A stretch of 39,731 nucleotides of DNA, taken from assembly GCA_039585935.1 (NCBI GenBank), contig JBDGUY010000008.1, forward strand, positions 1 through 39,731, written 5' to 3'. This stretch comes from Gemmatimonadota bacterium. GTDB taxonomy: Bacteria > Gemmatimonadota > Gemmatimonadetes > Palauibacterales > Palauibacteraceae. Shown here piece after piece: positions 16,857 to 17,929 of this stretch. How positions within the stretch are numbered: position 1 is the stretch's first letter; the number at the start of each line of letters is the position of its first letter. Position numbers and translations under genes: made by a program. The notes beneath the pieces are model-generated. The model saw only the letters and a list, made by a program, of their open reading frames with translations, ran no database searches and was not told the origin of the DNA.

Positions 16857-17414
16857 GTGGGCAAAGGTCGAAACAGGGTGGAGTCGCTGCTGAACGGATT
16901 GACTGTCGTCGCCCTCGTGGTCGCACTCGGATTCGTGGCCCGTGACCGAGTCGCTCCGGCGCTTCGGGAGAGGCGCATCGTAGATCCGGGGGAGCGCATT
17001 CCCGGCGGGATTCTCCTGCGAGACCTGTCGACGGGTGACACTGTAACCCTCGCCGGCCTTGCACCCTCCACGGTGCTCGTCTTCCTCACCACCTGCCCGG
17101 CATGCGAGCGCTCGACCCCTGCCTGGCGTGAGGCTCTCGCGCGTGCGCCGGGTTCCCGTTTGATCACGGTGGCGGTCGGAGACCACCCGGACGCGCGGGC
17201 CTGGACCGCCCGGGAGTTGCCGGGAATGACTGCCCTAGAGCCGCTGGATGTGGCCGGATTCCTGGGTACGATGCGAATCCAGGTCGTGCCGACCGCATTC
17301 TCGGTAGGGGCAGACGGCCGGATGCTGGACAGACGTGAAGGCGTCCTCAGTCCCGAGGACGCCCGGACACTTCTGATGGCGCCCCGGTCCCGCGGAACGC
17401 AGGCGGGGCCCTGA
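16857..17414 (+). CDS. membrane-anchored thioredoxin-fold thiol:disulfide oxidoreductase (TlpA/ResA/redoxin-like, CPAC active site)
   Basis: GTG start with SD GGGAGGAG. TM anchor LLNGLTVVALVVALGFVA. Trx-fold signature STVLVFLTTCPACERSTPAW ... VVPTAFSVGADGRML..REG. Confidence 0.75.
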   Translation: MGKGRNRVESLLNGLTVVALVVALGFVARDRVAPALRERRIVDPGERIPGGILLRDLSTGDTVTLAGLAPSTVLVFLTTCPACERSTPAWREALARAPGSRLITVAVGDHPDARAWTARELPGMTALEPLDVAGFLGTMRIQVVPTAFSVGADGRMLDRREGVLSPEDARTLLMAPRSRGTQAGP

Positions 17415-17415
17415 T

Positions 17416-17442
17416 GCCACTCGAAGCGACGGAGCGAGTGGC
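17416..17442 (+). promoter_or_regulatory. intercistronic stem-loop between the oxidoreductase gene and the first Cys-rich peptide gene
   Basis: 8-bp stem GCCACTCG / CGAGTGGC with an 11-nt loop, starting 2 nt after the stop, followed by TCCATTTCATTCCCCC and then the AGGAGG SD of the next gene. Function inferred: partial terminator, or an mRNA processing/stability element. Confidence 0.4.
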
Positions 17443-17472
17443 TCCATTTCATTCCCCCAACAGGAGGTATTC

Positions 17473-17691
17473 ATGAGATCGCGACTGACCGCGGCGCTCG
17501 CCGCCCTGGCGATCACCGGATTCGCTGGCGGCGTCACGCCGCCCGAGGCTCTGGCCGAGAAGACGAAGACGAGCTGTTCGGACTACTGCGGGGAAAAAGC
17601 CGCACAGAACTGCGAGGAGATCGACTCGTGGCGCTGCAACCTGTATATCGCCGGCTGCCTCGCCGGCTGCAACGTCAACAAGTATCTGTGA
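17473..17691 (+). CDS. small secreted 6-Cys protein, paralog 1 (unknown family)
   Basis: 72 aa. SD AGGAGG lies 5 nt upstream. Sec-type signal peptide MRSRLTAALAALAITGFAGGVTPPEALA|EK. Mature ~44 aa with C-x3-C-x7-C-x7-C-x6-C-x3-C-N. High-GC3 codon usage. Confidence 0.7.
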   Translation: MRSRLTAALAALAITGFAGGVTPPEALAEKTKTSCSDYCGEKAAQNCEEIDSWRCNLYIAGCLAGCNVNKYL

Positions 17692-17710
17692 AATCCAGAG
17701 AGGAGGACCG

Positions 17711-17929
17711 ATGAGAATCCGCCTGTTGACCGGCGTCGCGCTTCTGCTTGCGTCGCTGCCTCCTGCGCCTGCGGAGGCCCCGGCGGCTGAAGCCGCCGGC
17801 AAGTTGTGCAGGATTTACTGTGAGACGATCAGCGTGTTGTGCCAGGCCGGCGCGGCACCTATCGGCAATGACGAGCCCTGCATCCACCTGTACAGGGGCT
17901 GCCTGGACGGCTGCAACGCGCCGGACTAG
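17711..17929 (+). CDS. small secreted 6-Cys protein, paralog 2 (unknown family)
   Basis: 72 aa, 19 nt after paralog 1. SD AGGAGGA. Signal peptide MRIRLLTGVALLLASLPPAPAEA. Mature region C-x3-C-x6-C-x12-C-x6-C-x3-C-N. It shares YC and LY.GCL.GCN with paralog 1. Confidence 0.7.
   Translation: MRIRLLTGVALLLASLPPAPAEAPAAEAAGKLCRIYCETISVLCQAGAAPIGNDEPCIHLYRGCLDGCNAPD

What the first reader, a model, noticed from the sequence alone, without database searches (positions are those of the whole stretch)
16857..17929. Operon of a membrane-anchored CxxC thioredoxin-fold protein and two tandem paralogous signal-peptide 6-Cys mini-proteins
Three co-directional genes, each with a strong SD.
(i) 16857-17414 encodes an N-terminal TM anchor plus a TlpA/redoxin-like fold with a CPAC active site.
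(ii) 17473-17691 and (iii) 17711-17929 each encode 72 aa. Both start MR-x-RL and both have a Sec-type signal peptide. Each has a ~45-aa mature part with exactly six Cys in the same spacing, C-x3-C-x6/7-C-x7/12-C-x6-C-x3-C-N. The two sequences are SCSDYCGEKAAQNCEEIDSWRCNLYIAGCLAGCN and LCRIYCETISVLCQAGAAPIGNDEPCIHLYRGCLDGCN. They share YC and LY-x-GCL-x-GCN, and the DNA at GGCTGCCT...GGCTGCAACG is near-identical, so this is a local duplication.
I do not recognise the Cys pattern as a named family. The layout recalls three known cases: disulfide-bonded bacteriocin loci with dedicated thiol-disulfide oxidoreductases (sublancin sunA with bdbA/bdbB), Cys-lined helical Cu(I)-storage proteins (CxxxC motifs in Csp), and signal-peptide-bearing Cys-rich RiPP precursors (bufferins). 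However, no MNIO/DUF692, radical SAM, ABC exporter or leader protease gene is adjacent.
It would therefore be a distinct minimal system: exported 6-Cys mini-proteins (toxin, signal or metal binder) plus a dedicated periplasmic oxidoreductase. It sits in an accessory-looking patch beside a decayed recQ.
Basis: partly seen in the sequence, partly recalled or inferred. Interest (0 to 1): 0.78.

Follow-up and report, generated by a model that had tools for sequence, protein, structure and literature searches.

The report
Thioredoxin-like gene with paired six-cysteine mini-proteins
A group of uncultured Gemmatimonadota bacteria carries a strongly conserved gene cassette: a membrane-anchored thiol-disulfide enzyme plus two tiny exported proteins that probably fold into hairpins pinned by three disulfide bonds; the protein family is new, but its job is not known.

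Summary
Three co-directional genes, each with a Shine-Dalgarno site, encode a TlpA/ResA-type thioredoxin-fold protein (CPAC) and two 72-aa signal-peptide proteins with six cysteines.

- **The small genes are real.** dN/dS is 0.02-0.3, and 153 of 163 distinct homologous cores keep all six Cys. The outer spacing is fixed and length varies only between C3 and C4.
- **Predicted fold.** AlphaFold2 predicts a helix-loop-helix. Cys positions sum to a constant (C1+C6 = C2+C5 = C3+C4 = 101-102). C3 and C4 were lost together in two different proteins. This fits three nested interhelix disulfides.
- **Small, unnamed family.** An exhaustive search found 37 cluster representatives. Every named source but one, a probably mis-binned contig, is Gemmatimonadota. 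Pfam, NCBIfam and PDB give no usable match.
- **Linkage to the Trx gene holds.** It lies directly upstream in 47 of 48 informative loci, across at least three genomic contexts.
- **A fourth partner appears.** An NHL β-propeller lies within the fetched locus in 36 of 50 loci.

The region is core synteny, not an accessory patch. The A/B duplication is ancient. A bacteriocin role is unlikely because the peptides are anionic, vertically inherited and under strong purifying selection. Metal-binding thiolates remain a live rival. Biological function is unknown.

The parts
16857..17414 (+). Membrane-anchored TlpA/ResA/CcmG-type thioredoxin-fold protein, 185 aa. Active site is CPAC at residues 80-83, with a cis-Pro loop at VVP(145)T.
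   Evidence: ORF and SD. Profile against PDB hits an uncharacterised thioredoxin-like protein (2m72) and StoA at E 4e-6, and ResA at 3e-5. AF2 mean pLDDT is 83, with an N-terminal helix at 5-37 followed by a Trx fold. Foldseek best hits at E about 1e-7 are thioredoxin-family proteins and ResA; CcmG and TlpA follow at about 1e-6. Pfam Redoxin reaches only 16 bits against a cut-off of 26.6.
17473..17691 (+). miniA: 72-aa precursor made of a Sec-type signal peptide plus a mature part of about 44 aa. Six Cys at 35, 39, 47, 55, 62 and 66 (spacing 3-7-7-6-3).
   Evidence: AF2 predicts helix 35-46, a loop, then helix 53-71, with block-mean pLDDT of about 90 over residues 41-60. dN/dS is 0.09-0.31.
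17711..17929 (+). miniB: 72-aa ancient paralogue. Six Cys at 33, 37, 44, 57, 64 and 68 (spacing 3-6-12-6-3). The extra residues lie between C3 and C4, which is the predicted loop.
   Evidence: dN/dS is 0.02-0.04 among close relatives.
14243..15454 (-). Exported NHL-repeat six-bladed β-propeller, about 403 aa counted from MRALTSL. The mechanical ORF runs on to 15862. It is a probable fourth member of the module, separated from the three genes here by the recQ-like gene.
   Evidence: Profile A9 against PDB hits the NHL domains of TRIM71 and Thin at E about 1e-21. Pfam DUF5128 (6-bladed propeller) gives weak hits in 8 of 17 members. A homologue lies 12-69 nt downstream of the mini-protein genes in other contexts. 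Start site.
17431..17445 (+). Weak terminator-like hairpin between the Trx gene and miniA. Its significance is doubtful.
   Evidence: The stem is only partly conserved in relatives, although a GCGACGG core is invariant.

Best explanation
This is a conserved envelope module found so far almost only in Gemmatimonadota. It has three core components and one frequent partner.

**Components**
1. A membrane-anchored TlpA/ResA-type thiol-disulfide oxidoreductase, inferred to face the periplasm.
2. Two anciently duplicated Sec-exported mini-proteins, A and B, with mature parts of about 45 aa.
3. Usually, an exported NHL β-propeller.

**What is shown**
- The genes are real and under purifying selection.
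- The Trx protein has the TlpA/ResA fold with a CxxC motif.
- The six Cys and their palindromic spacing are conserved.
- The Trx gene and both mini-protein genes travel together through different genomic contexts.

**What is inferred**
- Each mini-protein folds into an antiparallel α-helical hairpin.
- The hairpin is stapled by three nested disulfides: C1-C6, C2-C5 and C3-C4.
- This non-consecutive pattern is not what co-translocational oxidation would give by default. The dedicated Trx-like protein is therefore proposed to act on the hairpins as a reductase or isomerase that lets them reach, or cycle out of, the nested pattern.
- A and B are non-redundant and may form a heterodimer.
- The NHL propeller is their likely binding partner or target.
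- Given core synteny and very low dN/dS, the role is housekeeping in the envelope, not warfare.
For: **Real genes.** Each has an SD site and the spacing is tight. dN/dS is 0.02-0.31. Homologues keep the length, signal peptide and Cys.

**Cys conservation.** 153 of 163 distinct cores have six Cys. The outer spacing 3...6-3 is fixed and the only variable segment is C3-C4, at 7-13 residues.

**Hairpin fold.** AF2 gives helix 35-46, a loop, then helix 53-71, with block-mean pLDDT of about 90 in the centre. The A/B length difference falls in the loop.

**Antiparallel register.** Position sums are 35+66 = 101, 39+62 = 101 and 47+55 = 102 in miniA. In miniB, 33+68, 37+64 and 44+57 all equal 101 (read from the sequence).

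**Tight helix packing.** Small residues flank the Cys: A43/A44 (A-type members) and G61/G65 (the GCLxGC motif), as tight interhelix packing requires.

**Paired loss of C3 and C4.** It is seen in two different proteins from different contexts: P0078 and the second mini-protein of L052.

**Trx protein.** Its fold and family are given. CxxC and the cis-Pro are invariant.

**Linkage.** Trx is directly upstream in 47 of 48 informative loci and two mini-protein genes are present in 47 of 50. The contexts are:
- recQ side / enoyl-CoA hydratase side;
- DUF5916 side / NHL-ABC-Fur side;
- a PP2C context.

**NHL partner.**. A TlpA-like Trx domain fused to an NHL propeller is a known architecture in NHLRC2 and its bacterial homologues (PMC6107167).
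Against: - No experimental data exist. The AF2 coordinates could not be inspected, so S-S distances are not verified.
- Mean pLDDT is only 70, because the signal peptide is poorly modelled.
- Foldseek found no PDB match for the hairpin.
- Constant position sums and paired Cys loss fit a layer of metal-binding thiolates equally well.
- Whether the Trx protein oxidises, reduces or isomerises cannot be told from sequence. The CxxC dipeptide varies between lineages: CPAC, CAAC, CRFC, CPVC and CDVC.
- In most loci the linkage sits in one inherited gene order, so part of the co-occurrence is phylogenetic inertia.
- One 4-Cys variant (L046) has an NHL propeller but no Trx gene in the 937 nt available upstream.
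Confidence: 0.5

Rival explanations
1. The mini-proteins are periplasmic thiolate metal binders. The Cys face of each hairpin would bind Cu(I), Zn, Cd or Hg, possibly in an A+B four-helix bundle with 12 Cys lining the core. The TlpA-like protein would work as a reductase that keeps the thiols reduced, as TlpA does for the copper chaperone ScoI.
For: - CX3C motifs on one helix face resemble the Cys-lined helices of Csp copper storage proteins (general knowledge).
- TlpA-type proteins are known to reduce ScoI and CoxB before metallation (cited in PMC6107167, ref. 40).
- In the second clade the module is followed by an ABC ATPase, a permease and a Fur-family metal regulator.
- Loss of C3 and C4 together also fits loss of one metal-binding layer.
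- Mitochondrial helical-hairpin Cys proteins (Cox17, COA6) act in copper delivery (PMC6946597, title and abstract seen).
Against: - The signal peptides look Sec-type rather than Tat-type, so folding would occur in an oxidising compartment (read from the sequence).
- His and Met are almost absent from the mature parts.
- Gly and Ala next to the Cys suggest helices packed at disulfide distance.
- No copper or zinc resistance genes lie near the window locus or its clade.
- There is no match to Csp or any metallothionein family.
Confidence: 0.22
2. The mini-proteins are a secreted two-peptide antimicrobial or signalling agent: a disulfide-stapled α-hairpin like plant α-hairpinins or glycocins. The Trx-like protein would be the maturation enzyme and, in some lineages, the ABC transporter would provide immunity.
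For: - The architecture resembles α-hairpinins (PMC11591084) and sublancin-type loci, which carry their own thiol-disulfide oxidoreductases (general knowledge).
- There are two peptides.
- The ABC ATPase downstream in clade 2 has sub-threshold similarity to lantibiotic-protection ATPases.
Against: - Core synteny and vertical inheritance across 37 species-level genomes, with no patchy distribution.
- dN/dS as low as 0.02.
- Mature peptides have net charge of -1 to -5 in most members, down to -11 in one.
- No dedicated exporter, leader peptidase or glycosyltransferase in any context, and no immunity gene or transporter in the window's clade (searches show an ABC pair in clade 2).
Confidence: 0.08
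3. The genes are only neighbours. The TlpA-like protein would serve a general client such as cytochrome c or copper-centre maturation, and the mini-proteins would be unrelated envelope proteins.
For: Most loci share one inherited gene order, which inflates co-occurrence. One variant lacks the Trx neighbour.
Against: The Trx gene and both mini-protein genes stay contiguous, in the same order and 7-99 nt apart, in at least three different genomic contexts and down to about 35% Trx identity.
Confidence: 0.07

Closest known systems
TlpA / ResA / CcmG / StoA membrane-anchored thiol-disulfide oxidoreductases with dedicated clients
   Same: N-terminal membrane anchor, Trx fold with CxxC and a cis-Pro loop. 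The logic is also the same: one specialised periplasmic Trx protein serves particular Cys-containing clients.
   Different: Sequence is very divergent and falls below all curated family cut-offs. The presumed clients are two novel mini-proteins encoded right next to it, not cytochromes, ScoI/CoxB or spore proteins. The direction of electron flow is unknown.
Plant α-hairpinins (4C: CX3C-Xn-CX3C; 6C: CX3CX3C-X4-20-CX3CX3C; PMC11591084)
   Same: A signal-peptide precursor, a short helix-loop-helix, and a palindromic Cys motif with an outer twin CX3C that implies nested disulfides.
   Different: They are eukaryotic defence peptides, and they often come from multi-module or vicilin precursors. Their inner Cys pair sits one helical turn from the outer pair (x3), whereas here it sits two turns away (x6/7). 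There is no sequence homology, the peptides here are anionic, and they have a dedicated Trx gene.
Glycocins such as sublancin (sunA with bdbA/bdbB)
   Same: A helical hairpin held by nested disulfides, and a locus that carries its own thiol-disulfide oxidoreductase (general knowledge, not tested here).
   Different: Those loci have a double-glycine leader, a SunT-type ABC exporter with a peptidase domain, and an S-glycosyltransferase; none of these is present here. They are also patchy accessory loci in Firmicutes.
Mitochondrial twin-CX3C / twin-CX9C hairpin proteins (small Tims, Cox17, COA6)
   Same: Small helical hairpins with paired Cys motifs that are oxidised in the compartment equivalent to the periplasm. 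Paralogue pairs exist (Tim9/Tim10), and there are links to TlpA-like chemistry (COA6, PMC6946597).
   Different: They lack signal peptides. Small Tims are longer and lack the inner Cys pair. No sequence match was found: Pfam shows nothing at E <= 1.
NHLRC2-type proteins (TlpA-like Trx domain fused to an NHL β-propeller; PMC6107167)
   Same: The same two domain types are associated: a TlpA-like Trx and a six-bladed NHL propeller.
   Different: Here they are separate genes, and the mini-proteins are encoded between them or beside them. The function of NHLRC2 is itself unknown, and its Trx domain is reported inactive in a standard reduction assay.
Bufferins (MNIO-modified Cys-rich peptides with Sec signal peptides; PMC11626156)
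   Same: Small Sec-exported Cys-rich peptides.
   Different: No MNIO/DUF692 or DUF2063 partner gene is found in any context. There is no HMM match to a bufferin family.

Membership tests
TlpA/ResA/CcmG-type thioredoxin-fold oxidoreductases | Thioredoxin fold with CxxC at the start of the first helix | tested here: met
   AF2 pLDDT 83 with β-α-β topology. Foldseek best hits at E about 1e-7 are thioredoxin-family proteins and ResA; CcmG and TlpA follow at about 1e-6. C80 and C83 are invariant.
TlpA/ResA/CcmG-type thioredoxin-fold oxidoreductases | Conserved cis-proline loop facing the active site | tested here: met
   V144-P145 is invariant. It aligns with the corresponding IP residues of StoA (3erw) and of an uncharacterised thioredoxin-like protein (2m72) in the profile alignment.
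TlpA/ResA/CcmG-type thioredoxin-fold oxidoreductases | N-terminal membrane anchor with an extracytoplasmic catalytic domain | tested here: inconclusive
   There is a hydrophobic helix within AF2 helix 5-37. Topology was not predicted with a dedicated tool and is inferred from the family.
TlpA/ResA/CcmG-type thioredoxin-fold oxidoreductases | Score above the curated family threshold | tested here: not met
   Pfam Redoxin scores 16 bits against a cut-off of 26.6. NCBIfam DsbE scores 11 bits against 123. This is a divergent subfamily, although one MAG annotation does call a homologue a TlpA family protein.
Plant α-hairpinins | Helix-loop-helix fold | tested here: met
   AF2 predicts helices 35-46 and 53-71. 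This is a prediction only.
Plant α-hairpinins | Cys motif CX3C-Xn-CX3C, or for the 6C class CX3CX3C-X4-20-CX3CX3C | tested here: not met
   The outer twin CX3C is present, but the inner Cys lie at x6/7 and x6 rather than x3. Motif definition from PMC11591084.
Plant α-hairpinins | Nested disulfides (C1 to the last Cys, and so on) | not testable with these tools
   Needs disulfide mapping. Only indirect support exists, from position sums and paired Cys loss.
Bufferins / MNIO-dependent RiPPs | Adjacent MNIO (DUF692) enzyme and partner protein | tested here: not met
   None appears among the Pfam-annotated neighbours within about 6 kb in any context.
Bufferins / MNIO-dependent RiPPs | Precursor matches a bufferin family model | tested here: not met
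   Neither Pfam nor NCBIfam shows a bufferin model at E <= 1 for either mini-protein.
SCIFF (six Cys in forty-five residues) peptides | Match to the SCIFF model and an adjacent radical SAM maturase | tested here: not met
   There is no NCBIfam hit at E <= 1 and no radical SAM gene nearby. These peptides also carry signal peptides, which SCIFF peptides lack (the last point is general knowledge).
Glycocin / sublancin-type loci | Double-glycine leader, peptidase-containing ABC exporter and S-glycosyltransferase | tested here: not met
   None is present. The only ABC genes found are a plain ATPase plus a small permease in clade 2.
Pfam DUF3551 | Score above the gathering threshold | tested here: not met
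   miniA scores 15.7 bits against a cut-off of 26.5, E 0.016. miniB has no hit.
Csp copper storage proteins | Four-helix bundle of more than 100 aa lined with Cys, and a family model match | tested here: not met
   The mature peptides are about 45 aa with two predicted helices. There is no family hit. A heterodimeric bundle could not be tested.

The most novel reading that the evidence does not exclude
The A and B hairpins would form a heteromeric, redox-switchable or Cu(I)-binding helical bundle in the periplasm. It would work with a TlpA-like reductase and an NHL propeller. That would make it a bacterial counterpart of the mitochondrial intermembrane-space hairpin proteins (Cox17, COA6, small Tims), and would give the widespread but unexplained Trx-NHL (NHLRC2-type) pairing its first defined client.
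Probability: 0.15. Interest if true: 0.75.

Novelty: new variant of a known kind. Interest (0 to 1): 0.45.

Why it matters
The finding defines a previously unnamed family of bacterial exported mini-proteins. The structural hypothesis is clear and testable: a helical hairpin with three nested disulfides. The family is also tied to a dedicated thiol-disulfide oxidoreductase.

Small proteins like these are routinely missed or left as 'hypothetical'. If the Trx protein really handles the hairpins, the system is a compact natural model for how bacteria make non-consecutive disulfides in very small proteins. The recurrent NHL propeller could shed light on the unexplained Trx-NHL pairing seen from bacteria to human NHLRC2.

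Stable disulfide-stapled helical hairpins are also useful peptide scaffolds. The value is limited by the unknown function and by the hosts being uncultured.

Tried and rejected
- **Curated families.** Pfam and NCBIfam scans of the three proteins and their neighbours gave no usable family for the mini-proteins. The DUF3551 hit is below threshold.
- **Solved structures.** The PDB sequence profile search and the Foldseek search with the hairpin model both found nothing.
- **Genome scan with the wide alignment.** It was repeated with the A-type alignment only. That scan therefore finds only members carrying YIxGCLAGC and cannot prove absence elsewhere.
- **'Accessory island' idea.** Rejected on flat GC content and conserved synteny.
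- **'Recent local duplication'.** Rejected because A and B are each orthologous across clades.
- **ABC transporter and Fur regulator.** They are seen in the second clade. I searched for them in the window and found none, so they are not universal parts of the module.
- **The 225-aa membrane protein next door as redox partner.** I considered it as a DsbB- or CcdA-like partner and rejected it because it contains no cysteine.
- **Apparent lack of miniB in L042.** The gene is present but frameshifted.
- **Terminator-like hairpin between the Trx gene and miniA.** It is not conserved as a structure.
- **Literature searches.** Searches for bacterial twin-CX3C or α-hairpinin-like periplasmic proteins, for TlpA with NHL, and for Palauibacterales found nothing describing this family.
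Full report
**1. What is in the window**

Three co-directional ORFs lie at the stated coordinates:
- 16857-17414: 185 aa, GTG start.
- 17473-17691: 72 aa, called miniA here.
- 17711-17929: 72 aa, called miniB here.

Each start has a Shine-Dalgarno-like motif 6-9 nt upstream: GGGAGGAG, AGGAGG and GAGGAGG. The gaps between genes are 58 and 19 nt.

The first protein has a hydrophobic N-terminal segment and CPAC at residues 80-83. 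Both mini-proteins start MR-x-RL, followed by a hydrophobic stretch and an Ala-rich cleavage-type site. This was read from the sequence because no signal-peptide predictor was available. Six Cys follow, with spacing 3-7-7-6-3 in miniA and 3-6-12-6-3 in miniB.

**2. The small ORFs are real genes**

- A profile search of 5.8 billion proteins found 35 homologues, all about 70 aa. They fall into two types that match miniA and miniB.
- An exhaustive HMM search of 1.84 billion cluster representatives found only 37 hits at E <= 1e-3. Nearly all are 63-91 aa with a signal peptide and the same Cys pattern.
- In a census of 163 distinct core sequences from all proteins and loci fetched, 153 have six Cys.
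  - The outer spacing is fixed (C-x3-C ... C-x6-C-x3-C).
  - C2-C3 is 6 or 7 residues, with one case of 9.
  - Only the C3-C4 segment varies, from 7 to 13 residues.
  - The exceptions are contig-end or frameshifted fragments, one protein with a seventh C-terminal Cys, and a 4-Cys variant discussed below.
- Pairwise dN/dS among the closer relatives is 0.02-0.04 for miniB and 0.09-0.17 for miniA, rising to 0.19-0.31 in comparisons with the more distant L010. For the Trx gene it is 0.18-0.39. The small genes are therefore at least as constrained as their large neighbour.

**3. The thioredoxin-like protein**

Curated models hardly see it. Pfam Redoxin gives 16 bits against a cut-off of 26.6, and NCBIfam DsbE and StoA give E about 0.2.

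Three other lines place it clearly:
- A profile of 15 homologues matches an uncharacterised thioredoxin-like protein (2m72) and StoA at E 4e-6, ResA at 3e-5, and DsbE/CcmG more weakly.
- AlphaFold2 gives a confident model (pLDDT 83) with a long N-terminal helix and a Trx fold.
- Foldseek's best PDB matches, at E about 1e-7, are thioredoxin-family proteins and ResA; CcmG, StoA and TlpA follow at about 1e-6.

CxxC and the cis-Pro (V144-P145) are invariant. The dipeptide inside CxxC differs between lineages: CPAC, CPVC, CAAC, CRFC and CDVC. This is a divergent member of the TlpA/ResA-type group. Whether it oxidises or reduces cannot be told.

**4. Predicted shape of the mini-proteins**

AlphaFold2, run with a 26-sequence alignment, predicts helix 35-46, a short loop, then helix 53-71. 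Block-mean pLDDT is about 90 over residues 41-60.

Four features of the sequences fit an antiparallel hairpin in which the Cys face each other.
- **Palindromic spacing.** Position sums are constant. In miniA, 35+66 = 101, 39+62 = 101 and 47+55 = 102. In miniB, 33+68, 37+64 and 44+57 all equal 101.
- **Loop indels.** All length variation lies between C3 and C4, where the loop is predicted.
- **Small flanking residues.** Small residues flank the Cys (A43/A44 in A-type members; G61 and G65 in GCLxGC). Helices that approach to disulfide distance need this.
- **Paired loss of C3 and C4.** P0078 keeps only C1, C2, C5 and C6. The second mini-protein of locus L052 does the same. These are different proteins in different contexts.

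I read this as three nested disulfides: C1-C6, C2-C5 and C3-C4. The same facts would also fit stacked layers of metal-binding thiolates, which is the main rival.

**5. Genomic context and distribution**

A scan of one genome per GTDB species with the peptide pattern YIxGCLAGC returned 37 loci. All are labelled Gemmatimonadota, including two Candidatus Palauibacterales species, or 'uncultured bacterium'. One is labelled Akkermansiaceae but has the Gemmatimonadota gene order and is probably mis-binned.

I mapped all loci with HMMs.
- Of 50 distinct loci, 48 have at least 650 nt of upstream sequence. In 47 of these the TlpA-like gene is directly upstream on the same strand, with a gap of -19 to 99 nt.
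- 47 of 50 loci have two mini-protein genes, and in every locus examined in detail the order is A then B.
- The one locus that seemed to lack miniB has it in frameshifted form.

The Trx gene and both mini-protein genes occur together in at least three contexts.
- **Clade 1, which includes the window:** acyl-CoA dehydrogenase, NHL propeller and recQ-like helicase on one side, facing away. On the other side, a small membrane protein, a 225-aa membrane protein and enoyl-CoA hydratase converge on the three genes.
- **Clade 2:** DUF5916/CBM9 protein, then Trx, miniA, miniB, NHL propeller lipoprotein, ABC ATPase, a permease of about 248 aa, a Fur-family regulator, a phosphoribosyltransferase and proline dehydrogenase.
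- **A third context:** Trx, mini, mini, NHL propeller, PP2C phosphatase.

Short contigs carrying distant members show the same Trx-mini adjacency. Trx identity falls to about 35% while the arrangement is kept. Synteny alone does not explain this, so the three genes behave as one unit.

The region is not accessory. GC content is flat at 0.60-0.69 across the window, and the gene order is shared across species.

**6. A fourth partner**

The 'hypothetical' gene beyond recQ (window 14243-15454, minus strand; start) belongs to a family that lies 12-69 nt downstream of the mini-protein genes in the other contexts.
- Its profile matches the NHL-repeat β-propellers of TRIM71 and Thin at E about 1e-21.
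- Pfam's 6-bladed propeller model DUF5128 hits weakly in 8 of 17 members.
- It is present within the fetched locus in 36 of 50 cases.
- In several lineages it carries a lipoprotein-type signal (read from the sequences).

A TlpA-like Trx domain fused to an NHL propeller is the known architecture of NHLRC2 and its bacterial homologues (PMC6107167). That makes a functional tie between the two proteins here plausible. The 4-Cys variant P0078 has the propeller but no Trx gene in the 937 nt available upstream.

**7. How it most likely works**

*Shown:*
- The genes are real and under purifying selection.
- The fold class of the Trx protein is established.
- The Cys pattern is conserved.
- The three genes are linked.

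*Inferred:*
- The mini-proteins are exported by Sec, fold into helical hairpins and are locked by three nested disulfides.
- Nested pairing joins the first Cys to the last. General oxidation during translocation tends to join neighbours. A dedicated TlpA-like protein acting as reductase or isomerase on these clients would solve that problem.
- The long co-retention of A and B in fixed order suggests they are not redundant and may form a heteromer.
- The NHL propeller is the likeliest binding partner.
- Core synteny and very low dN/dS point to a housekeeping envelope role.

I put about 0.5 on this picture.

**8. Rivals**

- **Metal-binding thiolates kept reduced by the Trx protein (about 0.22).**
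  - For: the CX3C helices, the known TlpA-ScoI precedent, and the Fur and ABC genes in clade 2.
  - Against: Sec-type export, near absence of His and Met, and no metal genes around the window locus.
- **A two-peptide antimicrobial (about 0.08).**
  - For: the fold.
  - Against: anionic peptides, vertical inheritance, strong purifying selection, and no exporter or immunity gene in the window's clade.
- **Mere neighbours (about 0.07).**
  - Against: the multi-context linkage.

**9. Comparison with known systems**

- The Trx protein works like, and structurally belongs with, the TlpA/ResA/CcmG group, although it fails the curated sequence thresholds.
- The mini-proteins are not members of any named family. 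DUF3551 is below threshold. No bufferin, SCIFF, Csp or small-Tim model matches at E <= 1. No MNIO, radical SAM enzyme, glycosyltransferase or peptidase-ABC gene is nearby.
- In shape they most resemble plant α-hairpinins, including the 6-Cys class (PMC11591084). The inner Cys pair, however, is two helical turns from the outer pair instead of one, and there is no homology.
- Literature searches found no description of this family.

**10. Verdict**

The framing as an accessory, minimal, possibly toxin-like system is not supported.

This is a new small-protein family forming a new variant of a known theme: a specialised periplasmic thiol-disulfide oxidoreductase with dedicated clients. Interest is moderate. 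The structural hypothesis is clean and testable, and the link to the Trx-NHL pairing is intriguing. The function is unknown and the hosts are uncultured.

Noticed in passing
window 15561-16729 (-), break near 15911: The recQ-like helicase gene has a 112-nt deletion relative to L008 and L009. This removes about 37 codons of the helicase C-terminal domain and shifts the frame. The gene is intact (420-440 aa) in all relatives checked. It is either a true pseudogene or an assembly error.
   Followed up: yes
window 17963-18163 (-) and 18189-18866 (-): A 66-aa small membrane protein and a 225-aa multi-pass membrane protein with no cysteine and no Pfam family converge on the three-gene module. The pair is conserved next to it throughout clade 1 and absent from the other contexts. 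Function unknown.
   Followed up: partly
L034, L035, L038, L041, L048-L051 (e.g. L049 6198-9720): In a second Gemmatimonadota clade the module is followed, in the same direction, by an NHL propeller lipoprotein, an ABC ATPase, a permease of about 248 aa with no Pfam family, and a Fur-family regulator. No homologues of these ABC or Fur genes are present in the window.
   Followed up: partly
L019 5481-6635 (-), L026 5490-6827 (-), L031 1985-3940 (-), L037 3202-4521 (-): In four relatives, a gene whose longest ORF is 380-650 aa, with a TPR-like C-terminus, is inserted between miniB and the small membrane protein gene. These loci lack the NHL propeller next to recQ. The inserted gene was not identified.
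   Followed up: no
L027 (contig CAXMRU010000236.1): A contig from a MAG labelled Akkermansiaceae carries the full Gemmatimonadota gene order: recQ, Trx, miniA, miniB, membrane protein, enoyl-CoA hydratase. It is probably a binning error.
   Followed up: partly
window 17431-17445 (+): A weak terminator-like hairpin lies between the Trx gene and miniA. The stem is not well conserved in relatives, but a GCGACGG core in the spacer is invariant in five genomes.
   Followed up: partly
L042 5260-5425; L008 3686-3691: Two small defects in relatives. miniB of L042 is split by a frameshift between the signal peptide and the Cys domain. miniA of L008 has TGA as its second codon, so only a shorter 61-aa ORF remains. 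These may be MAG errors or real decay.
   Followed up: partly
window 3620-4408, 7072-7914, 9320-10099 (+), and 18936-19823 (-): The window holds four enoyl-CoA hydratase paralogues and an acyl-CoA dehydrogenase. In relatives, AtuA-like genes, carboxyltransferase and methylmalonyl-CoA mutase genes lie just beyond. This suggests a branched-chain or terpenoid acyl-CoA catabolic region around the module.
   Followed up: no
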